A DNA stretch of 64,000 nucleotides from a virus, in IMG/VR virus record IMGVR_UViG_3300007609_001079, positions 1 through 64,000 of that record. One strand, 5' to 3'. Position numbers and translations under genes: made by a program. Every line of letters starts with the position of its first letter. The first letter of the stretch is position 1. Shown piece by piece: positions 1 through 11,129 of the stretch. The notes beneath the pieces are model-generated. The model was not told where the DNA came from. It saw only the letters and a program-made list of their open reading frames with translations, and ran no database searches.

Positions 1-106
1 ATTTTCCTGTCTTTTCTAATGCTTTTTTGAAGAAAGTTTGATATTCACTTTCTTCAACCATTACTTCTCGAACGATTTCTTTTAATCTATTTCTTGATAT
101 TTTCAT
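1..106 (-). CDS. Partial ORF (runs off the left edge); probable internal head protein
   Basis: Hand translation: MKISRNRLKEIVREVMVEESEYQTFFKKALEKTGK...; its ATG overlaps the TGA of 103..993 (ATGA). Not in the ORF track. Confidence 0.7.
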   Translation of the reverse strand, partial: MKISRNRLKEIVREVMVEESEYQTFFKKALEKTGK

Positions 107-993
107 TTCTCTATCTCCTGTATTGTCTTAGCAATATTAATTAGTCTTTCCTTTATCTTATAAATATGATTTTGGGTTCTTTTCCAATATTTTTGAGAAT
201 CCAACTCATTCATCGTTTTAATCTTATTATACCAATTAAAAAACTTTTCTGTTTCTGCCAACTGATACTTTAATTCTTTAAGACCCATTGCCATCTTTTT
301 ATGTGGATGCATTGTATCATCGTTTTTTAATTCTAACCAACGATTTACTGGTCTTTTTTGTTTTGCTTCTGAAATGATTTGGTCTTTTTTAAATGATACA
401 GATGGTGTTGCTGCAATCTTACCTTTACCACCAAAGTAATCTACCTTAGCATCAATACCAAATCTTGATTTTAATATCTTAACCACACCACTACCAAACT
501 TTTCATCTTTTAGTTTGATGTAAGTTTTTCCATCGCGAGTAGTGTTTTTTATTTCCTTTTCTACAAAACGAGAACCAATGGATTTAATAAGTGAATCTAC
601 CGAATCTCCAGCAAGTTGTCCTTTAAAATCTGATTCGTTTACTGATTCATTATAGAATGATTTTAAGTATTTGTGAAATTCTTTATCAGTTCTAACTTCT
701 TTATATTGTTTATCTGATAATACTTTTTTAATAAAATCAGTTATATTCTTAGAACCTTTTTTAATGATATTTAAATCGGACATAAAAGATTCATCAACTT
801 TACCAGCTAATGTATAACCAATTCTCTTAGCCATTTTCTTCTTACGTTTCTTATCAGAAGAACCTTTATCAGAAAAAGCATTTGGGGTTTGATAACCAGC
901 AACATTACCAGTTGTGGTTACTTCATCCATCTCACTTTGAACTTCATCTATGATTTCATCTAAGTATGATTTATTATTTTGTTTCATTGACAT
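103..993 (-). CDS. Hypothetical head-region protein with several x-x-Glu junctions
   Basis: 296-aa ORF downstream of portal; acidic leader ending MDE, internal VDE/YNE/VNE/ISE motifs, C-terminal helical/coiled-coil region. Confidence 0.6.
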   Translation of the reverse strand: MSMKQNNKSYLDEIIDEVQSEMDEVTTTGNVAGYQTPNAFSDKGSSDKKRKKKMAKRIGYTLAGKVDESFMSDLNIIKKGSKNITDFIKKVLSDKQYKEVRTDKEFHKYLKSFYNESVNESDFKGQLAGDSVDSLIKSIGSRFVEKEIKNTTRDGKTYIKLKDEKFGSGVVKILKSRFGIDAKVDYFGGKGKIAATPSVSFKKDQIISEAKQKRPVNRWLELKNDDTMHPHKKMAMGLKELKYQLAETEKFFNWYNKIKTMNELDSQKYWKRTQNHIYKIKERLINIAKTIQEIEK

Positions 994-1907: not shown

Positions 1908-3641
1908 TTAATTTTCTGTATCTTCGAGAATATTGTCCTCACTCAACATACTCCCATTTTCGTGTAAATATTTTCTCTTTGATGCAATTCCGTTGATGAT
2001 TTTCAACGCTTTTTCTTCGGATGTTCGAGAACGTTTTGAGGTTCTTTCATCATCACCAAGAGGGTCTCTACCATAAGGGTGTTTATCTTTTCCATAGGTT
2101 CCACCTTCTCTCGGTCTACCACCCTTATCTTTAATTTCTTGTTTTAGTTGTTCCAATGATTCTTCAATATCATTTGGTTCTTCATCATCCATTGCAGGGT
2201 CATTACCTTCATCTTCAATAGAACGGAAACGATATCTATCTTTTAAATCATCTAACATTTTAACTCGTTGTTCATCTTGTTCACCATCAGATAGTTTAAA
2301 GATGTTTTCATATACCCAATCTTTGGATAACATATTAAGACCTTGGATATCTTGAGCCAATCTAATTTTCTCTGACCAAAGATTTACTTTTTCTTGTTCG
2401 TAAATTGTAGATGGGTTTACTAATGATAAACTAAAATTAGTCATCTCTGAATCTTGGATACCTTGTGAGTATAAGTGAACGATGGCAATTTTAGATAATT
2501 CCGAAATTACTGTTCTTTGGATTCTTTCAATTGTTCTTGCAAATCTTACATCTTCTGCAGCAAGGGTTGCTTTACCATTTACATTTTCTTCGTACCCTAA
2601 ATAAGCACGAGGAATTTTTAATGCAGCAAACATCTTGTTCTTTAAGTAATCGATATCATCCAATGAAGGTGTATCTAAGCCTGGTAGGTTTTCAATAGAT
2701 GTTCCACTATCTCCACCACGAACCGGTAAGAAGAAATCTTCTGTTAGGTTCTGCATATTATACTTTAAGTTATAATCGCCGGTGTTTCTATCAACAAAAG
2801 GAACTTTCTTCATCTTGTTGATAATTCTTTGCATGTAATTATCAACTTCAGTAGGAGCAATGTTTCCAATATCAATTTTGAAAACTCTCTTTTCAGGTGC
2901 TCTCATAATTCTGTGGATTAACATTGCATCTTCCATTAAAGAAATCTGTTTCCACAATCTTCTACCATTTTCAATCATTGATTTTCCATATGGTAACCAA
3001 TTGGTATCCGCTAATAATCTGAAGTGTGCAATTTCAAAATTTTCGTATTCTTCTTTTCCATTCGGGTCCTCGGTAATTTTAAACTTTACTGAGTTTGGAT
3101 TTGAAGGGTCGGTTCTTTCTAATCTTTCGGTATTGTAAACAGAATGTGGAGTAACGTTAACGATACCCTTACCTTCTGCAACTTCTAAACCTAAAAAGAA
3201 ATCTCCATACTTACACATATTACGAACCCAGGGCCATAAATTAAACTCTACGTTCATTACATCGTAAAATAAGTTATTAAGAACATCTTGAACTTTTTCA
3301 TTATCTGAATGAACTAATAGGATATCACCAAACTCATTTTTTAAAGTAGATTCATCTGCGTAGATATCTAATGCAGAAGCAAGAATAGGGTCATTATCCA
3401 TTGCATCATAATCACGGAAAACTTCTCTACGAACTTGTTGGTATGCCATTGATTGTGCACCACCTGCTTGTTCATAGAAAGATTTCTGTAACTTAGTGTA
3501 TCTATCTCTTAGAGATGATAAGTTAGTTTGCTGTCTTTCATCAGTATCATATACTTTTCTCTTACCATCCTTATCAACCGTAACTATTGCTTGAGAACGA
3601 AAGAGTTTAGTTAACCTCCCAAAAAATGAAGTATCTGCCAT
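1908..3641 (-). CDS. gp20: T4-like portal protein
   Basis: EDAMLIHRIMRAPEKRVFKIDIGN, EDFFLPVRGG, IENLPG, DIDYLKNKMFAALKIP, EDVRFARTIERIQ match the conserved T4 gp20 blocks. Confidence 0.95.
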   Translation of the reverse strand: MADTSFFGRLTKLFRSQAIVTVDKDGKRKVYDTDERQQTNLSSLRDRYTKLQKSFYEQAGGAQSMAYQQVRREVFRDYDAMDNDPILASALDIYADESTLKNEFGDILLVHSDNEKVQDVLNNLFYDVMNVEFNLWPWVRNMCKYGDFFLGLEVAEGKGIVNVTPHSVYNTERLERTDPSNPNSVKFKITEDPNGKEEYENFEIAHFRLLADTNWLPYGKSMIENGRRLWKQISLMEDAMLIHRIMRAPEKRVFKIDIGNIAPTEVDNYMQRIINKMKKVPFVDRNTGDYNLKYNMQNLTEDFFLPVRGGDSGTSIENLPGLDTPSLDDIDYLKNKMFAALKIPRAYLGYEENVNGKATLAAEDVRFARTIERIQRTVISELSKIAIVHLYSQGIQDSEMTNFSLSLVNPSTIYEQEKVNLWSEKIRLAQDIQGLNMLSKDWVYENIFKLSDGEQDEQRVKMLDDLKDRYRFRSIEDEGNDPAMDDEEPNDIEESLEQLKQEIKDKGGRPREGGTYGKDKHPYGRDPLGDDERTSKRSRTSEEKALKIINGIASKRKYLHENGSMLSEDNILEDTEN

Positions 3642-3678: not shown

Positions 3679-4059
3679 TTACCATTTTCTACAAGACCAA
3701 TATCTTGCTTTGTGCCTTGGACCTGGTGAATCACAATTGTGTCTTGCTCTAAAAGCTTTTCGTGCATCAGGATTATTTTTACGAATTTTCATCGTTTTTC
3801 CTTTTGCAGAACTTCCACCATGTCCAAAGTTTACTTTGACAACGTTTCCTTGGGGGTTTTTAACATATACTTTGAATTTCTTGACATCACCTTGCATCGG
3901 TTTACCAAGTTTTACTTTTCTACCTTGATACTCAGCTTCGTTCATATCAGCTTTGTATTCTTTCATGAATTCGCAAAATTCTTTGATGTCATGGTAGTTT
4001 TCCACCACATACTCTTCACAATATGAATTATTTTCTAATAAGCTAGATAAATTTATCAT
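3679..4059 (-). CDS. Small basic protein of T4-like phages (RKAFRARHNC...ARYWSC type), possibly head-packaged
   Basis: Acidic leader ending MNE followed by a very basic domain; AGGAGA SD and TATATTTATA upstream. Confidence 0.65.
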   Translation of the reverse strand: MINLSSLLENNSYCEEYVVENYHDIKEFCEFMKEYKADMNEAEYQGRKVKLGKPMQGDVKKFKVYVKNPQGNVVKVNFGHGGSSAKGKTMKIRKNNPDARKAFRARHNCDSPGPRHKARYWSCRKW

Positions 4060-4077: not shown

Positions 4078-4087
4078 TATAAATATA
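4078..4087 (-). promoter_or_regulatory. TATATTTATA putative late promoter
   Basis: Exact 10-mer ~19 nt upstream of the 4059 start. Confidence 0.7.
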
Positions 4088-4109: not shown

Positions 4110-5705
4110 TTACAACAACCACGTTAAATCTTCTTGGGAACCATTAACATCGATTGACCATGGATTTTGTTCCAATGATGAATTACCACCAAACCCACCT
4201 CCACCACTTCCAATAGAAGTTTGGTTAGTAGAAATACTACCAAGTGCGTTTAAGGTTAAATCCATCCCTTCTTGCCTTAATCTAAGTGCGGTATCTCGAA
4301 CCCAAAGGGATATTGATAAGGACATAACTAAATCATCATTATATCCTCTCATTGCTTCAGCACGATTTCCATTCCATATAAAAGTAAATAACTCATCTAT
4401 GGTTCTCGTTGAACGTATAAGAACTTCTTTCTCTCTGATGTATTGTTCCATTTTAGAAATAATCAAAGGACGAGTTTTAGAAGTTGTTGAAAATCCAGCG
4501 GTCATATTTCGTTCTTCTGCTCGGTATTTATTATGTAATTGATGTTCTACATCCACATACTTTAAATCCTTACTCATATAGAAAAGGTTTTGATATCCTC
4601 TATCGATTACTTGTTGAATTACTGCCCAACCAATATTTGCGTTTTCAATTACGAGCAGTGCATTGTTGTAATCCGTTGATAATGATACGAGAAAGTTTCC
4701 AAAATCTTTGGTATCTAATTTACCTTTATATTCTGCAACTTGTGCGGAGTTCTCTATATCGATAACATGACATGCAGAGAAATCAGCAGAATCACCACGA
4801 GCAACATCGGCAACGACCATATAAGATTTCTGATAGTTAGGGTATTCCCATTTCCAAAGGTTTCCATCGAACCCAGTCTTTTCTACCGGTTCTTGACAGT
4901 AAGTTTCTTTGTAGAACATTAAAAGTTGTGGGTCGATTACAGTATCACCTGAACTTACAAAATCACAATCACATTCTTGTGCTGCACCTTTTGGTCCTAA
5001 AAGAACTTCTTGCTCATCTCTCCAAGTTTGGTCTCGTTCAGGATGAACTGACCAATGTAATCGGATAGTGTTAAAGGCATTACTACCATCTTCTGCACCT
5101 ACCCAAGTTTTGTGGAAGAAATTACCTACCCCATTTGGAGTTGATAAGATAATTGCGTTACCACCCGTTGATAAGGTAGATTGAGCAGATACCCAAATTT
5201 CTTCAATCTTATCGATAAAGGCTGCCTCATCAAATACTAATAAGGATAGTGCTTCAGAACGACCCGCATCACCTGCTGCAGATGTTGCTTTGATTTGAGA
5301 ACCATTTGAATATCGTAAAGATAATTTGTTATCTTCTACTGTTGTTTGTTTTAACCAAGAAGGTAAATACTGATTCATTACTCGAACCTTGGTTACCAAG
5401 TTTTTTGCAACCTCTTGTTTGGTTGCAATTACAAGAACGTTAAAATCTTGATTGAATAACATCTTCCATAATGAAAATCCTGCAGTTAAGGTTGATATAC
5501 CTGTTTGACGAGATTTTAAAATGATGTTATATCGATGTTCGTGAAATTGTGTTAGAGTTGATTCTTGGAATGGATATAATTGAAAAGGAATTTTACCACG
5601 AACTGGGTGTTGTATCATACAATACTTCTTCATGAAGTATATAGGGTCACCAGCACACTTCTGATACTCTAATTTAATTATATCTTTTAACGTTTGTTTA
5701 GCCAT
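4110..5705 (-). CDS. gp17: Terminase large subunit (T4 gp17-like)
   Basis: FQLYPFQ adenine motif, Walker A KSRQTGIST, Walker B LLVFDEAAF, coupling motif STPNG, nuclease motifs ADVARG, IENAN, DDLVMS. Confidence 0.95.
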   Translation of the reverse strand: MAKQTLKDIIKLEYQKCAGDPIYFMKKYCMIQHPVRGKIPFQLYPFQESTLTQFHEHRYNIILKSRQTGISTLTAGFSLWKMLFNQDFNVLVIATKQEVAKNLVTKVRVMNQYLPSWLKQTTVEDNKLSLRYSNGSQIKATSAAGDAGRSEALSLLVFDEAAFIDKIEEIWVSAQSTLSTGGNAIILSTPNGVGNFFHKTWVGAEDGSNAFNTIRLHWSVHPERDQTWRDEQEVLLGPKGAAQECDCDFVSSGDTVIDPQLLMFYKETYCQEPVEKTGFDGNLWKWEYPNYQKSYMVVADVARGDSADFSACHVIDIENSAQVAEYKGKLDTKDFGNFLVSLSTDYNNALLVIENANIGWAVIQQVIDRGYQNLFYMSKDLKYVDVEHQLHNKYRAEERNMTAGFSTTSKTRPLIISKMEQYIREKEVLIRSTRTIDELFTFIWNGNRAEAMRGYNDDLVMSLSISLWVRDTALRLRQEGMDLTLNALGSISTNQTSIGSGGGGFGGNSSLEQNPWSIDVNGSQEDLTWLL

Positions 5706-7057: not shown

Positions 7058-7067
7058 TATAAATATA
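7058..7067 (-). promoter_or_regulatory. TATATTTATA putative late promoter
   Basis: Exact 10-mer ~28 nt upstream of the 7030 start; heads the run that includes the terminase. Confidence 0.7.
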
Positions 7068-7090: not shown

Positions 7091-10000
7091 TTAGAAGAAT
7101 ATACCCAATAGTTGATTTACAGATGCGAATGCACCAGTCAATTTGAAAGTATTTCCTTTATATTGGAAAACAATTCCTTCATTTGGTACAATTTTAGAAG
7201 GACCACCAATAGATTGTAATCGTTTTAACTCTAATTTTAATTTTTCAATCTTTTTAGGGTCACCTGATTTCTTAACATCTTTAATTGTCTTATCTATTCT
7301 CTTTTTTATCGAGCGAACTGCTTCATCTGGGTTTACAGTAAGTACTGATGATGTAAATTCTAATACATCTGCACCAACCCCTAAGAAAATATTTTCAAAT
7401 TTCATTAAATTATCTTTTGAAATTTTCTTTTGGTCTTGTGAATCAATTTTCTTTGCCCAAATTAGAGTTTTTTCATCAGCAATATTCTTTTTATCTAATC
7501 TAAACTTCTTATCCATGAATGCCCATCTCTTAACTAACCCCATTAGAGTTTTATTATCGAGTGTTGTTGGTGAATTTTTAGTAATCCATTGTTTCCACCA
7601 CTCTTGGTGGTATTCTGCAACTCCATCAGTATCCTTTAAACCGAATTCTTTTTGTAATTTAGAAATTTGTGAGGTATATTTTCCTTTTTTAGAGGATAAT
7701 TGTTGTGATTTTGGTAATTTAATTACAGGTGGACCTTGAATTGTGTAATTATTTTGTACATCTTTGTTGATTTGTTTAATCATACCTGCCAAGATTCTCC
7801 CAGCATCTGCATTTTCTCCAATTGCAACACCATTCTCATCATATTCCATTGTTCCATGTAATACTAATAGAGGTTGACCATAAGGAATTACATTTACTGA
7901 AGTAGGATATATTACTTCAAGGTTCATAAAACACGAACCTCCTTTAAAAATCTTCTCTCGTTGTTTTGATGATAGTGATTTAATAGAATCAGATAAATCT
8001 TTCATAGCAAAGTTGTATGCTTTTTCCAATTCACCCCTTCCAGCGAACTTATCAGCAACTGCTTTTATATCTAATGCATTCTCACCACTATTTTTTAGAT
8101 GTCCTTTATTTCTTGCAGCAACTAATCTTCCATTTACCCAAGAAACTGCAAGTGCTTGACCATCAGTTTTTTCTCGTGTAAATTCTAAGTTACCTTCCAA
8201 TGCACGATTAACGATATCTTTAAGTTGTCCAAAGGTTAAGTTGATTTCAGTATCAAATGGATGATTCATATGCCCATATGCACCACCTTCCATTAACATA
8301 TTAGATTCGTTAATATTTTCTTTTATTAACTGGTCTGATGTTTTAGTTGTTGGATAAAACATCTCAACAATATGATTATCTAAATCCTCTAATAACTTAT
8401 CTATATTATCATTCATACCTTCGTTATATTTTTCTTTAAATGCAGTATGCATCTTTTGTATATCAGTTGGTATAGATAATTTTAATTTATCAGTTGATTC
8501 ACTTAAAGATTCACCCAATCCACCTCTATCATGTTTGGAGAATTTACTTAGTTTATCATATGCTCTGAATGATTTTAATTTATCTTGTTTTATTGGTCTC
8601 ATATCAGATAGTTGTTTGTATCTCATATGATTTTTAACAACGTATAAAACATTAGCAACATTACCACCAACGGACTTAATCCAATCTTTATATTTCTTTA
8701 CCAATGAAGCAGAAACTTTTTCGTGCCCAAAGTGTGTAATATGACCCTTCTTTGGATGAATACCTGCGGTTTCATCTTTTCCTATATCGTGAAACATTGC
8801 TGCTATTGCAATATCAATATCATCATCTTTTAAAGAACGATTTACAACTGTAATTGTATGTTTTAAAACATTACCCTCTGGATGTTTATCCAACCTCTGT
8901 CCAAAGTTTTTTAAGTTATATACCCTTTTTTGTAATTCAGATGGCATTTTTTTGAATAGTGATTTGAAATTAGTAATTCCTAACTTTTCAAGTTCCTTAC
9001 CTTCACTTAAACGAACCATAGATTCTTTACTTCTAAAATCTCGGTTAGAACCTTTGTTATTCTTAAATCCAAATGATTTATAGAACTGAACTAATCTTGA
9101 TTTCGAACCACCAAAATCCGAACTTGGTGTTGTGAAAATATCTTTGTTATTTTGTTGTGCATATTTTATCAAGTCTTGCATTACCTTAGAACCAATACCT
9201 TTATTTCGTTGGTCTTGTGGTACTACAACTCTTCTCAACTCTAAGTGATTTGGGTATTCGTAAATATCTAAATCAACTTTATATTTACTTGATAAAGTAT
9301 TTTCAATTCCTTCATTTATTTTTGTAATTTGTTCGTTTTTAGGAGAGAATTTCTCTACTTCCTTTGCACGTAAAACAGGTAAGAACTTAAACTTAGCTCG
9401 TTTCAATATTCTACCTTTTTTTCTAACTACATTCTTGTGAACTACCTGAGATTGTTTGATAGATAAATCGGATTTCTTTATATCGGGAAATAATTCTTTT
9501 GCAAACTCATCATAAACTTGTCGGTATGCCATCTTGTAAGCAATCTTTTTAAGTTTAGAAAGAGGTTTTCTTCTCTTCATTGTTCTTGCTCGTCTCCTTG
9601 CTATTTGAGCTCTCTTACCAGCCATTGCAGCTTTTCTTCTCAACTTATCAGCTGGTCTCATCTTACCTCGTTCTTCTAAATCTTCAGATTCTCCCAATAT
9701 ACCATTCTTTTCTTGCCATGAATCAAATGCATCATAATCGTATTCTTGTTGTTGAGAATCCCAACCACACGAATGACATAGATACTTTTCGTTATCATCA
9801 GATTCTATTTCCCATGAATGATTACATTTTTCACATTGGATTGTAGTTCCTGCGAGTTCTACTACAAAGTTTTCATTCATATATCTGAATGTAACTACTT
9901 TCTTACCATTAATAGTTGGCATACCATGTTCATCTTTACCAATAGATTTAACAACAACTTTTTTGTTCTTAAATTTACCCATTAATAAAGTATCACCAAT

Positions 10001-11098
10001 TTCTACTGGTAAGTTTATTGCCTCTTTAAGTGAGTTTTCATATTCCGATTGAGATTCTTTATCTCCTTGTTGAGAACCAAGTGCAGTTTCTTTATCAGTC
10101 TGATTAGATTCTATTCCACTTACCACCGAATATCCTACCAATGCTGCCTGTCGAGTAACATGAGTAAACCATTTTGAGTAAGCATCACTTGAATAGATAT
10201 CAATTTGGTTAGTTGCAGTTTTAGCACCAAGAACACCAGCAGGGAATGGGGTTACTGCTTTTACAGGCCCATTAGGATAAATTGGGTGTTCATAATAATC
10301 TTCTAATTCTTTAGATGATATCATATTAACAATCTCATATCCAATCTTTGCAGCTCTTTTAACGTTTATTTTAGAAAAGATATCAAAGTTAGGAAAAAAG
10401 TTGTTTGGTCCATCATCAACATCACTACCCATATTACCAACAACATTAGATGCTTCATTGATTAACCATTCTTCAATTCGTTCTTTAGGAATAAAGATAC
10501 CTTCGTTTAATTTAGAAGTGATTAAGTTGAATATGGTTTTGTTATATTTTGGGTATGCTCTATCTGTAAAGAAAGATTGTTTTTGTTCATCTGAACCTAA
10601 TGATAATCCATTACGAACATCAGTACCGCTTATTGGGTTGGATTGAGATGGTGATACGTAAACATATCCCCTATCTCTATACCCCTCAGTTGGAGTTCCT
10701 TTTAATGGAGTAAAGTATTTACCACCTAAACGAGATTTATCCTTCTCACCAACAACAGTTATGAAGGCAGTGGTAGTTTCATCAAACTTTTTAAGGATTT
10801 CAGTTGGTTGGTATGGGTTTTTAACTTGATGTATTTTGGATTTAGGTATACCAAACATCGATGTCATTATCTGAACCTTCTCCTTAAAATTAAATGGAGA
10901 TTTCGGTTTAGATACTTTGTTAGAAGTTCCTATAAAGACATTATTTTTACCAAATTTCTTTACAAGATGTTGGTAAGTAGAATAGTGTCCTTTATGGAAA
11001 GGTTGAAATCTCCCAACATAAACAACTACTATCTTTTTAATAGGATTATCATCCTCGAGTAGAATTTGCTCTACGAGATATTTAGAAAGTTCATTCAT
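7091..11098 (-). CDS. Multidomain polyprotein: HxGH nucleotidyltransferase / unknown / small beta domain / Zn ribbon / basic domain / GNAT / HD / RNA-ligase-like
   Basis: GRFQPFHKGH...ISGTDVR; CEKC...CHSC; VVVPQDQRNKGIGS...FYKSFGF; HPEGNVLKHT...FHDIGK...GHE...NHM; EKTDG...ARNKG...NLEVI...EGIVF...FKLTG. Confidence 0.85.
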   Translation of the reverse strand: MNELSKYLVEQILLEDDNPIKKIVVVYVGRFQPFHKGHYSTYQHLVKKFGKNNVFIGTSNKVSKPKSPFNFKEKVQIMTSMFGIPKSKIHQVKNPYQPTEILKKFDETTTAFITVVGEKDKSRLGGKYFTPLKGTPTEGYRDRGYVYVSPSQSNPISGTDVRNGLSLGSDEQKQSFFTDRAYPKYNKTIFNLITSKLNEGIFIPKERIEEWLINEASNVVGNMGSDVDDGPNNFFPNFDIFSKINVKRAAKIGYEIVNMISSKELEDYYEHPIYPNGPVKAVTPFPAGVLGAKTATNQIDIYSSDAYSKWFTHVTRQAALVGYSVVSGIESNQTDKETALGSQQGDKESQSEYENSLKEAINLPVEIGDTLLMGKFKNKKVVVKSIGKDEHGMPTINGKKVVTFRYMNENFVVELAGTTIQCEKCNHSWEIESDDNEKYLCHSCGWDSQQQEYDYDAFDSWQEKNGILGESEDLEERGKMRPADKLRRKAAMAGKRAQIARRRARTMKRRKPLSKLKKIAYKMAYRQVYDEFAKELFPDIKKSDLSIKQSQVVHKNVVRKKGRILKRAKFKFLPVLRAKEVEKFSPKNEQITKINEGIENTLSSKYKVDLDIYEYPNHLELRRVVVPQDQRNKGIGSKVMQDLIKYAQQNNKDIFTTPSSDFGGSKSRLVQFYKSFGFKNNKGSNRDFRSKESMVRLSEGKELEKLGITNFKSLFKKMPSELQKRVYNLKNFGQRLDKHPEGNVLKHTITVVNRSLKDDDIDIAIAAMFHDIGKDETAGIHPKKGHITHFGHEKVSASLVKKYKDWIKSVGGNVANVLYVVKNHMRYKQLSDMRPIKQDKLKSFRAYDKLSKFSKHDRGGLGESLSESTDKLKLSIPTDIQKMHTAFKEKYNEGMNDNIDKLLEDLDNHIVEMFYPTTKTSDQLIKENINESNMLMEGGAYGHMNHPFDTEINLTFGQLKDIVNRALEGNLEFTREKTDGQALAVSWVNGRLVAARNKGHLKNSGENALDIKAVADKFAGRGELEKAYNFAMKDLSDSIKSLSSKQREKIFKGGSCFMNLEVIYPTSVNVIPYGQPLLVLHGTMEYDENGVAIGENADAGRILAGMIKQINKDVQNNYTIQGPPVIKLPKSQQLSSKKGKYTSQISKLQKEFGLKDTDGVAEYHQEWWKQWITKNSPTTLDNKTLMGLVKRWAFMDKKFRLDKKNIADEKTLIWAKKIDSQDQKKISKDNLMKFENIFLGVGADVLEFTSSVLTVNPDEAVRSIKKRIDKTIKDVKKSGDPKKIEKLKLELKRLQSIGGPSKIVPNEGIVFQYKGNTFKLTGAFASVNQLLGIFF

Positions 11099-11119: not shown

Positions 11120-11129
11120 TATAAATATG
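11120..11129 (-). promoter_or_regulatory. CATATTTATA putative late promoter (1 mismatch)
   Basis: ~22 nt upstream of the polyprotein ATG. Confidence 0.65.

What the first reader, a model, noticed from the sequence alone, without database searches (positions are those of the whole stretch)
7094..9001. HD phosphohydrolase plus RNA-ligase-like domain suggests an RNA heal-and-seal kit
Seen: the HD module has HPEG...HT, HDIGK, GHE and HM, the pattern of HD domains in CCA-adding enzymes. The C-terminal ~400 aa carry covalent nucleotidyltransferase motifs in the right order: I (EKTDG), Ia (ARNKG), III (NLEVI), IV (EGIVF), V (FKLTG). Known: the E. coli CCA-enzyme HD domain has 2',3'-cyclic phosphodiesterase/phosphatase activity, and T4 repairs tRNA with Pnkp + Rnl1. 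Inference: repair of RNA cut by host defence nucleases. The N-terminal HxGH domain could be NMNAT-like and counter NAD depletion (more speculative).
Basis: partly seen in the sequence, partly recalled or inferred. Interest (0 to 1): 0.75.

Follow-up and report, generated by a model that had tools for sequence, protein, structure and literature searches.

The report
Phage polyprotein ending in RNA-ligase-like enzyme
The flagged stretch is the last half of one 1335-residue protein of a large aquatic T4-like phage: it holds a real HD phosphoesterase of the tRNA-CCA-enzyme type and a previously unmodelled enzyme with the fold and catalytic residues of RNA ligases. The whole protein looks like a string of RNA-end-repair enzymes that the phage's head protease may cut apart.

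Summary
Observation confirmed. Window 7094-9001 is residues 700-1335 of one ORF (7091-11098, minus strand). It lies directly upstream of terminase and portal in an incomplete (about 55%) IMG/VR phage contig.

- **HD domain (residues 700-867):** it matches Pfam HD and CCA-enzyme models and aligns to E. coli Cca residues 223-283.
- **Relatives:** some fuse this ligase to a PNK-clan kinase, a CCA-adding enzyme and an HD domain. This supports RNA/tRNA repair.

- The constant partner of the ligase is the N-terminal HxGH nucleotidyltransferase, not the HD domain.
- This copy's HD is what remains of an HD-CCA enzyme that lost about 340 residues of polymerase in frame.
- No 5' kinase lies in this ORF or contig.

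Module borders carry an enriched hydrophobic-N/S-Glu motif (8 observed, 0.9 expected), and complete relatives encode a T4 gp21-type head protease. Cleavage and virion packaging are therefore plausible but unproven. The same family was already flagged and followed up on other genomes in this scan.

The parts
7091..11098 (-). Whole ORF, 1335 residues (stop codon at 7091-7093): a modular enzyme polyprotein. The finding covers its residues 700-1335.
11120..11127 (-). Promoter-like motif. It reads ATATTTATA on the gene strand, 29 nt upstream of the ATG. The same motif lies upstream of the neighbouring head-module genes.
   Evidence: 17 of 26 gene-strand copies in the contig lie within 60 nt upstream of an ORF start.
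11054..11098 (-). N-terminal leader, residues 1-15, ending in I-L-L-E. Relatives have leaders of 4-15 residues that also end in hydrophobic-x-Glu.
10502..11053 (-). HxGH (HIGH) nucleotidyltransferase, NMNAT/NadM-like, residues 16-199. FHKGH at 10985-10999, ISGTDVR at 10613-10633. It ends in K-L-N-E.
10064..10453 (-). Conserved module of unknown fold, about residues 216-345. Invariant residues include the DDGP of its VDDGPN motif and several Tyr/Gly/Pro/Trp/His positions.
   Evidence: The fold attempt failed (pLDDT 48).
9872..10015 (-). Small beta-rich module (GDT..GKFKNKK..INGKK), about residues 362-409. In relatives it recurs in front of other modules.
9743..9871 (-). Four-Cys zinc-ribbon-like segment, about residues 410-452.
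   Evidence: (weak HypA and PriA-type zinc-ribbon hits).
9311..9691 (-). Lys/Arg-rich segment, about residues 470-596.
   Evidence: sequence
9002..9310 (-). Short GNAT acetyltransferase-like module, residues 597-699.
   Evidence: Acetyltransf_7 E 2.7e-06, Acetyltransf_1 E 1.7e-05. (phrog_10691 E 3.6e-23).
8498..9001 (-). HD phosphoesterase of the CCA-enzyme type, residues 700-867, with the His/Asp motifs intact.
8288..8497 (-). Linker and scar, residues 868-937. Residues 871-889 match the first residues of the CCA-polymerase module of the relative in L005, and residues 898-937 match the segment after it. About 340 residues are missing here. The segment ends in the conserved L-x-E just before GGAYGH.
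7094..8287 (-). RNA-ligase-like covalent nucleotidyltransferase domain, residues 938-1335. Motif I is EKTDG (K977, 8159-8173). Motif III is E1061. Motifs IV and V are EGIVF and FKLTG (7133-7180).
7193..7804 (-). Helical insertion of about 200 residues (about 1099-1302) between motif IIIa and motif IV of the ligase-like domain.
   Evidence: secondary structure of the model

Best explanation
The stretch is the C-terminal half of a 1335-residue modular protein of a large aquatic phage with T4-type head genes. Its modules, in order, are:
- an NMNAT-like HxGH nucleotidyltransferase
- an unknown module
- a small beta module
- a zinc ribbon
- a basic segment
- a mini-GNAT
- an HD phosphoesterase
- an RNA-ligase-like domain of about 400 residues from an unmodelled family

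Proposed mechanism for the ligase domain (inferred from the fold and invariant residues):
1. Lys977 takes AMP from ATP.
2. The AMP passes to a 5'-phosphate RNA end.
3. A 3'-OH attacks and seals the break.

The HD domain (inferred by homology to the E. coli Cca HD domain) removes 2',3'-cyclic, 2' or 3' phosphates from RNA 3' ends. In relatives this same backbone also carries a PNK-clan kinase and a CCA-adding enzyme. The family is therefore best read as a tRNA/RNA end-repair kit against host RNA-cutting defences. This copy is a reduced version: its CCA polymerase has been deleted and it has no kinase.

The module borders carry hydrophobic-x-Glu motifs of the type cut by T4 gp21 head protease, and the protein starts with a short leader that ends the same way. 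I therefore infer, with less confidence, that the protein enters the prohead, is cut into separate enzymes, and is delivered with the DNA.

My estimates for each step:
- active covalent nucleotidyltransferase: about 0.85
- substrate is RNA: about 0.65
- role in tRNA repair: about 0.5
- protease processing and packaging: about 0.4
For: Fold and catalytic residues:
- The model has pLDDT 88.9.
- The motif residues are invariant.
- hhalign places EKTDG on T4 Rnl1 K99-E-D-G and NLEVIYP on its motif III.
- The protein ends 16 residues after motif V, so it has no OB domain.

HD domain.

Family context:
- Fused partners in 34 long relatives are HIGH 26, HD 5, CCA head 4, AAA_33/Zeta kinase 3.
- HIGH and the ligase lie in one ORF in 44 of 52 closed ORFs. 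Two relatives have the reversed order.

Head context:
- The order polyprotein, o218, TerL, o126, portal is conserved across the 80 IMG/VR loci fetched: 78 carry o218, 76 TerL and 66 portal, and it is also found in Microcystis phage Mel-JY01.
- TerL is T4 gp17-like.
- A Peptidase_S77 (gp21) gene lies about 3 kb past the portal in 3 of 3 complete relatives.

Border motif:
- [LIVMFY][NS]E[GSAN] occurs 8 times against 0.9 in shuffles (0 of 2000 shuffles reach 8). All 8 lie at module borders.
- In 93 relatives the non-ligase part has 109 observed against 37.6 expected. The ligase part has 16 against 20.9, and other ORFs of the contig have 17 against 22.6.
- L/I-x-E directly before GGAYGH is kept in 206 of 235 sequences, although that segment is disordered in the model.
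- The HIGH domain ends in L-x-E in nearly all relatives.

The gene shares a promoter-like motif with the neighbouring head genes.
Against: - No sequence-level significance to any known ligase family: 0 of 30 members hit a ligase Pfam model, and hhalign against T4 Rnl1 gives only E 0.08.
- Motif V has one Lys (K-L-T), whereas T4 Rnl1 has the K-x-K pair of K240 and K242 (my recollection, not checked here).
- No 5' kinase, CCA head, Tpt1 or RtcB-type partner was sought and found in the held 55% of this genome, so a complete repair path is not shown for this phage.
- The HD here is a leftover of a deleted HD-CCA module and could be decaying.
- Two complete relatives lack any canonical DNA ligase, so a DNA-sealing role is not excluded.
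- Cleavage and packaging rest only on motif statistics, synteny and analogy to T4. There are no virion proteomics for this family.
Confidence: 0.55

Rival explanations
1. The ligase-like domain seals DNA rather than RNA. It could close nicks in phage DNA during replication or just after injection.
Against: - All best structural matches are RNA ligases.
- There is no OB domain or motif VI, because the protein ends 16 residues after motif V.
- Fused partners in relatives are RNA-end enzymes: CCA-adding enzyme, HD, PNK-clan kinase.
- G002 has a canonical DNA ligase and still keeps this gene.
- From my own knowledge, T4-like cyanophages also lack a DNA ligase.
Confidence: 0.15
2. The protein is a cytoplasmic multi-enzyme protein that is never cut or packaged. 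On this reading the hydrophobic-N/S-Glu motif is only a helix-capping or linker signature inherited with shuffled modules.
For: Part of the motif enrichment in relatives reflects shared ancestry of homologous junctions. In two distant relatives the ligase and HIGH domains are joined by a Lys/Glu/Pro linker without such a motif. There is no direct evidence of cleavage.
Against: - All 8 motifs in this protein fall at module borders, and none lies inside the ligase domain.
- L-x-E before GGAYGH is conserved although disordered in the model.
- Stand-alone ligase homologues keep a 15-residue leader that ends in L-L-x-E.
- The gene sits in fixed synteny with terminase, portal and a gp21-type protease.
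- A distantly related HxGH 'cytidylyltransferase' was detected in CsCl-purified virions of the T4-like cyanophage S-SZBM1 (PMC9146016). Its similarity to our HIGH domain is weak: 26% identity, pairwise E 5e-06.
Confidence: 0.3
3. The conserved pair of HxGH domain and ligase domain acts on a nucleotide cofactor or on RNA 5' ends, not on broken tRNA. Examples would be NAD+ synthesis feeding an NAD-using ligase, or NAD or nucleotide capping of RNA.
For: HIGH and the ligase are fused in most relatives, in either order. This argues that they work together. The HIGH domain is closest to NadM and archaeal NMNAT. HD, kinase and CCA modules are optional.
Against: The NMNAT similarity covers only about 60 residues. 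No Nampt/NAPRTase and no Tpt1 is present in three complete relatives. To my knowledge no NAD-dependent RNA ligase is known. The structural neighbours are ATP-dependent enzymes.
Confidence: 0.1
4. The domain mainly has a morphogenetic or structural role, as T4 gp63 (Rnl1) also promotes tail-fibre attachment. On this reading the ligase chemistry is secondary or lost.
For: The gene always sits in the head and packaging gene block. T4 rnlA is annotated 'RNA ligase and tail fiber protein attachment catalyst'.
Against: The catalytic Lys, motif III Glu, motif IV Glu-Gly and motif V Lys are invariant across sequences only 38-84% identical to the query. This points to selection on catalysis.
Confidence: 0.07

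Closest known systems
T4 RNA ligase 1 (RnlA/gp63) working with T4 Pnkp (PseT): tRNA heal-and-seal against the PrrC anticodon nuclease
   Different: - There is no significant sequence similarity.
- A helical insertion of about 200 residues sits between motifs IIIa and IV. Rnl1 instead has a C-terminal helical tRNA-binding domain.
- Healing here is by an HD domain, not the HAD-type phosphatase of Pnkp.
- This copy has no kinase.
- The enzymes are strung in one protein next to the head genes.
Rnl5 (Naegleria gruberi NgrRnl), Trl1 ligase domain, T. brucei REL1 and T4 Rnl2
   Different: Each of these families has its own flanking domain (N-terminal in Rnl5, C-terminal in Rnl2 and Trl1). This domain instead has an internal helical insertion and a conserved GGAYGH..HPFD N-terminal segment. 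No clade assignment is possible from these data.
HD domain of E. coli CCA-adding enzyme (Cca). It has 2',3'-cyclic phosphodiesterase, 2'-nucleotidase and phosphatase activities (Yakunin et al. 2004, from my own knowledge).
   Same: The HPE..HT..HD(I/L)GK..H.GH pattern aligns to Cca residues 223-283. It hits CCA-enzyme models. In relatives the same HD sits beside a PolyA_pol head domain.
   Different: In the phage family the HD precedes the polymerase head in some relatives (P0145, L005), the reverse of the order in E. coli Cca. In this window the polymerase part is deleted altogether.
T4 head-internal proteins (IPI-III, Alt), which are targeted by a short N-terminal capsid-targeting sequence and cut by gp21 after L/I-x-E (from my own knowledge of T4 morphogenesis)
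   Same: The protein has a short leader ending in hydrophobic-x-Glu, repeated hydrophobic-x-Glu motifs at module borders, and a gp21-family protease in relatives.
   Different: Processing and packaging are not shown here. The cargo would be a chain of RNA-end enzymes rather than an anti-restriction protein or an ADP-ribosyltransferase.
NadM/archaeal-type NMN adenylyltransferases, including the NMNAT-Nudix proteins of jumbo phages
   Same: The GRFQPFH.GH and IS.T..R motifs are present. The best hits are NMNAT models and structures.
   Different: Only about the first 60 residues align. There is no Nudix partner, and no Nampt in relatives. The domain is constantly fused to a ligase-like domain, which is not an architecture known for NMNATs.

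Membership tests
Covalent nucleotidyltransferase superfamily (ATP-dependent ligases and capping enzymes) | Motif I KxDG with the catalytic Lys in a loop between two strands | tested here: met
   E-K977-T-D-G. K, D and G are invariant in 30 homologues. The Lys lies at the end of the strand spanning model residues 72-77. hhalign places it on T4 Rnl1 K99.
Covalent nucleotidyltransferase superfamily (ATP-dependent ligases and capping enzymes) | Motifs III, IIIa, IV and V in order on the core beta strands | tested here: met
   E1061, H1081, E1307-G1308 and K1319 are invariant and lie on strands 156-164, 177-186, 408-413 and 416-420 of the model. Motif V has a single Lys.
Covalent nucleotidyltransferase superfamily (ATP-dependent ligases and capping enzymes) | Nucleotidyltransferase fold | tested here: met
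Covalent nucleotidyltransferase superfamily (ATP-dependent ligases and capping enzymes) | Formation of a covalent Lys-NMP intermediate | not testable with these tools
   This needs an adenylylation assay.
Rnl1 family (T4 RnlA; Pfam RNA_lig_T4_1) | Sequence membership in the family model, and a C-terminal helical tRNA-binding domain | tested here: not met
   No ligase Pfam model is hit by any of 30 members, even at E up to 10, apart from 2 weak DNA_ligase_aden hits. hhalign against T4 Rnl1 gives E 0.08. The protein ends 16 residues after motif V, and its helical part is an internal insertion.
ATP-dependent DNA ligases | OB-fold domain with motif VI after the nucleotidyltransferase domain | tested here: not met
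HD phosphohydrolase superfamily, CCA-enzyme subtype | H...HD...H...H metal-binding motifs and a match to the HD and CCA-enzyme models | tested here: met
   PF01966 at 29.8 bits (cut-off 22). TIGR02692 E 1.3e-08 and PRK10885 E 1.4e-05, both over the HD part only. BLASTP to E. coli Cca residues 223-283.
Class II CCA-adding enzyme | Pol-beta type head domain (PolyA_pol) with the GG.VRD motif | tested here: not met
   The domain is absent from this ORF and from the contig. It is present in the relatives P0123, P0139, P0145 and L005. The alignment shows about 340 residues missing here.
NMN adenylyltransferase (NadM/archaeal type) | HxGH and ISxTxxR motifs, plus a full-length match above the family cut-off | tested here: inconclusive
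   Both motifs are present. PF01467 scores 31.9 bits (cut-off 21). The NMNAT-specific models score far below their cut-offs: NF002243 scores 33 against 127, and TIGR01527 scores 29 against 181.
T4 gp21 (Peptidase_S77) substrates / head-internal proteins | Cognate protease encoded by the phage | tested here: inconclusive
   The protease gene is present in 3 of 3 complete relatives (E 1e-26 to 7e-33). In this contig the region past the portal is cut off at the window start.
T4 gp21 (Peptidase_S77) substrates / head-internal proteins | L/I-x-E cleavage sites and an N-terminal targeting leader, with cleavage and presence in virions | tested here: inconclusive
   The motif is enriched and positioned at module borders. 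Cleavage and packaging are not testable with these tools.
GNAT acetyltransferases | Match to GNAT models over the acetyl-CoA binding core | tested here: met
   Acetyltransf_7 scores 28.1 bits (cut-off 27) and Acetyltransf_1 scores 25.5 bits (cut-off 20.7). Only the C-terminal half of the profiles is covered.

The most novel reading that the evidence does not exclude
A widespread group of aquatic T4-like jumbo phages packs a protease-processed chain of RNA-end enzymes into the capsid and injects it with the DNA, so that repair is in place before any phage gene is expressed. The core of this chain is an obligate pair: an HxGH nucleotidyltransferase and a new clade of RNA ligase. The pair may carry out a coupled, non-canonical end-joining or end-capping chemistry.
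Probability: 0.2. Interest if true: 0.85.

Novelty: new variant of a known kind. Interest (0 to 1): 0.62.

Why it matters
- **A new ligase family.** The ligase-like domain defines a large family: 1757 clusters at 50% identity and more than 569 IMG/VR loci. No Pfam model matched any of its members, and I found no paper on it. If active, it would be a new clade of RNA ligase with an unusual internal helical insertion. That matters for RNA-repair biology and possibly as a reagent.
- **An obligate pairing.** The constant fusion with an HxGH nucleotidyltransferase, in either order, suggests a coupling that has not been described.
- **Possible delivery with the virion.** If the chain is cut by the head protease and carried in the virion, it would be the first case of pre-made RNA-repair enzymes delivered at infection. 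That would change how the timing of phage counter-defence against tRNA-cleaving systems is viewed.
- **This copy as a natural experiment.** It shows module loss in action, through the in-frame deletion of the CCA polymerase.

Tried and rejected
- **Sequence search of the whole protein against solved structures** found only NMNAT and HD-region hits, and nothing for the ligase part.
- **Profile search of the ligase family against PDB sequences** gave only eukaryotic ribosomal protein eS6 (E 8e-05) over the start of the helical insertion. I treat this as compositional or unexplained, not as homology.
- **Pfam scan of 30 family members at E up to 10** found no ligase family.
- **DUF6267 lead.** The protein atlas pointed to DUF6267, carried by 24% of one neighbouring cluster. 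DUF6267 does not match this contig, and no paper mentions it.
- **Fold of residues 200-470**, built with 17 homologues, failed (pLDDT 48). The VDDGPN module therefore remains unassigned. I saw no Walker A motif in this ORF.
I used an IMG/VR scan instead.
- **Virion-proteomics lead.** S-SZBM1 virions contain a 'cytidylyltransferase' (PMC9146016). Its HIGH domain is only weakly similar to ours. Its neighbour gene is not ligase-like, and the family profile finds nothing in that genome. This is therefore only indirect support.
- **T4 late promoter.** TATAAATA on the gene strand is not enriched (10 copies). Overall the octamer is at chance level. Its complement on the gene strand is the motif that is positioned upstream of genes.
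- **Literature.** The Burroughs and Aravind 2016 survey of RNA repair systems is not held in the library, so I could not check whether it mentions this family. No paper on Mel-JY01 or DUF5661 was found.
Full report
**What is at the coordinates**

Window 7094-9001 is not a separate gene. It is residues 700-1335 of a single 1335-residue ORF on the minus strand (7091-11098). All long ORFs of the window lie on that strand, and G+C is about 30%. The window is the first 64 kb of a 101,661-bp IMG/VR virus record that is judged about 55% complete and has no end repeats. Directly downstream lie three small genes, the large terminase (4110-5705) and the portal (1908-3641).

**Domain map of the ORF**
- Residues 1-15: leader.
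- Residues 16-199: HxGH nucleotidyltransferase (PF01467 E 1.7e-07). The best specific hits are NadM and archaeal NMNAT, but only over about 60 residues. An ISGTDVR motif is present.
- About 216-345: a conserved module of unknown fold with a VDDGPN motif.
- About 362-409: a small beta module.
- About 410-452: a zinc ribbon.
- About 470-596: a Lys/Arg-rich stretch.
- Residues 597-699: a short GNAT.
- Residues 700-867: HD domain.
- Residues 868-937: a linker.
- Residues 938-1335: the ligase-like domain.

**The HD claim**

The HD domain passes the Pfam cut-off. It hits CCA-enzyme models over their HD part only. BLASTP aligns it to E. coli Cca residues 223-283 with the His/Asp motifs in register.

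**The ligase claim**

No family library and no solved-structure sequence search recognises residues 938-1335. The family is nevertheless large: 1757 clusters at 50% identity, 561 of them at E below 1e-30.

An alignment of 30 mostly stand-alone homologues (38-84% identity to the query) has 25 invariant columns.

AlphaFold2 with this alignment gives pLDDT 88.9 and pTM 0.83. Only the first 38 residues of the query are disordered.

Structural comparison:
- Foldseek ranks T4 Rnl1, fungal Trl1-LIG and archaeal Rnl3 first (best E 1.6e-03, prob 0.96).
- The hit list is coherent, the motif residues are invariant, and the residues sit on the expected strands. Together these make a covalent nucleotidyltransferase fold the clear reading.
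- A profile-to-sequence alignment with T4 Rnl1 is not significant (E 0.08). It does put EKTDG on K99-E-D-G and NLEVIYP on motif III.

Two features set the domain apart from known ligases. A helical insertion of about 200 residues sits between motifs IIIa and IV. The protein ends 16 residues after motif V, so there is no OB domain and no appended C-terminal domain.

**Family context**

In 34 long relatives the fused partners are:

| Fused partner | Relatives (of 34) |
|---|---|
| HxGH domain | 26 |
| DUF5661 | 6 |
| HD | 5 |
| PolyA_pol (CCA) head plus its RNA-binding part | 4 |
| AAA_33/Zeta-type P-loop kinase | 3 |

- One relative, P0145 (1930 residues), reads HIGH, DUF5661, AAA_33 kinase, HD, CCA head, ligase.
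- That set (kinase, phosphoesterase, template-independent nucleotidyltransferase, ligase) is the known make-up of RNA repair systems (background in PMC7824862). It supports an RNA/tRNA repair role for the family.
- The constant partner of the ligase is the HxGH domain, not the HD. The two lie in the same ORF in 44 of 52 closed ORFs, which range from 767 to 1918 residues. In two distant relatives the order is reversed and the domains are joined by a plain Lys/Glu/Pro linker. This suggests that the two work together.

**This copy is reduced**

The closest complete relative is G001 (276 kb, locus L005). It has the same backbone, but its HD is followed by a CCA-polymerase module with GGAVRD. A global alignment gives the following:
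- Residues 703-889 of our protein match residues 776-961 of the relative.
- About 340 residues are then missing from our protein.
- Residues 898-960 of our protein match residues 1302-1364 of the relative.

The HD here is therefore what remains of an HD-CCA enzyme after an in-frame loss of the polymerase. This agrees with an earlier scan note (e1-5993292). No AAA_33 kinase, CCA head, NAPRTase or Tpt1 is found in the 101.6 kb held. G001 and G002 do encode AAA_33 kinases elsewhere, so a kinase may lie in the missing part of this genome.

**Head context and the polyprotein idea**

Synteny and head machinery:
- Across 80 IMG/VR loci the order polyprotein, o218, (two small genes), TerL, o126, portal is kept. 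Microcystis phage Mel-JY01 has the same arrangement.
- TerL is T4 gp17-like. It is 56% identical to Mel-JY01, 55% to the Flavobacterium immuto phages and about 34% to cyanomyoviruses.
- Three complete relatives each encode a T4 gp21-type prohead protease about 3 kb past the portal. That position lies beyond the start of our contig.

- The motif [LIVMFY][NS]E[GSAN] occurs 8 times against 0.9 in shuffles, and 0 of 2000 shuffles reach 8. The Glu residues are at positions 199, 215, 409, 596, 699, 867, 893 and 931. All of these are module borders.
- In 93 representative relatives the non-ligase part has 109 motifs against 37.6 expected. The ligase part has 16 against 20.9, and the other ORFs of the contig have 17 against 22.6.
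- Immediately before GGAYGH, position -1 is Glu in 206 of 235 sequences and position -3 is Leu or Ile in 230 of 235. That stretch is disordered in the model.
- Stand-alone ligases keep a 15-residue leader that ends in L-L-x-E.
- The HIGH domain ends in L-x-E, and the N-terminal leaders end in hydrophobic-x-Glu.

From my own knowledge, T4 gp21 cuts after L/I-x-E, and T4 internal proteins carry a short cleaved targeting leader. The analogy is good. Cleavage and packaging are still inferred, not shown, and part of the enrichment in relatives is inherited rather than independent.

Two further points bear on this:
- The gene has a promoter-like ATATTTATA 29 nt upstream of its start. It shares this motif with o218, o126 and the gene after the portal. 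17 of the 26 gene-strand copies in the contig lie within 60 nt upstream of ORF starts.
- An HxGH 'cytidylyltransferase' was detected in purified virions of cyanophage S-SZBM1 (PMC9146016). It is only weakly similar to our HIGH domain, and that phage has no member of the ligase family.

**Rivals**
- *DNA sealing* cannot be excluded, because G001 and G003 lack any canonical DNA ligase. Against it stand the structural neighbours, the missing OB domain and the RNA-end partners in relatives.
- *An NAD-linked role for the HIGH-ligase pair* is possible but has little support. Three complete relatives have no Nampt/NAPRTase and no Tpt1.

**Comparison and novelty**

The domain works like an Rnl-type RNA ligase, but it fails the membership tests for Rnl1 and for DNA ligases. 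It is best described as an unmodelled clade of the covalent nucleotidyltransferase superfamily.

BFVD holds family members named only 'cytidyltransferase-like domain-containing protein'. More distant look-alikes occur in cyanophage S-PM2 and phage PA5oct, and they rank ahead of annotated T4-type RNA ligases.

The same family was flagged, and twice followed up, on other genomes in this scan, with similar conclusions. My tests were run independently on this window.

I rate it a new variant of a known kind, with interest 0.62.

Noticed in passing
Window 11120-11127, 7058-7065, 4078-4085 and 1881-1888, plus 13 more sites in the contig: A motif reading ATATTTATA on the gene strand lies 11-49 nt upstream of 17 ORF starts. 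That is 17 of the 26 gene-strand copies in 101.6 kb. It is a candidate phage promoter class shared by the polyprotein and the head-module genes. The T4 late consensus TATAAATA on the gene strand is not enriched.
   Followed up: partly
Window 103-993 (minus strand), the 296-residue ORF two genes past the portal: This ORF carries 3 copies of the hydrophobic-N/S-Glu-small motif against 0.2 expected. It is the only other ORF of the contig with such an excess, so it is a possible scaffold or internal head protein processed by the same protease.
   Followed up: partly
Window 3679-4059 (minus strand), the 126-residue ORF between TerL and the portal: It starts with a leader ending in S-L-L-E and has a further M-N-E site before a Lys-rich C-terminal part (phrog_7595, unknown function). 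It is conserved in 62 of 80 related loci.
   Followed up: no
Contig G000:C1 99313-100048 (outside the window): A cluster of four tRNA genes (Asp-GTC, Ser-TGA, Thr-TGT, Glu-TTC) lies on the gene strand.
   Followed up: no
Relatives G001 (276 kb) and G003 (173 kb): These complete or near-complete relatives have no ATP-dependent or NAD-dependent DNA ligase detectable with Pfam models. G002 has one.
   Followed up: partly
Window about 7500-7950 (ligase residues about 1046-1200): The family profile hits eukaryotic ribosomal protein eS6 (residues 66-215) at E 8e-05 in the PDB sequence search. The hit spans the motif IIIa strand and the start of the helical insertion. It is probably compositional, but it remains unexplained.
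   Followed up: no
Window 9002-9350 (residues 583-711): The GNAT-like module matches positions 2675-2809 of a 3925-position PHROG profile of unknown function (phrog_10691, E 3.6e-23). The same module therefore also sits inside giant phage proteins.
   Followed up: no
Loci L005, L030 and L046 (and others): The segment between the HIGH and ligase domains varies from about 0.4 to 3.4 kb among otherwise syntenic phages. It behaves like a hypervariable cassette slot: ParB-like, kinase, CCA, HD, GNAT and intein/Hint modules were seen or noted there.
   Followed up: partly
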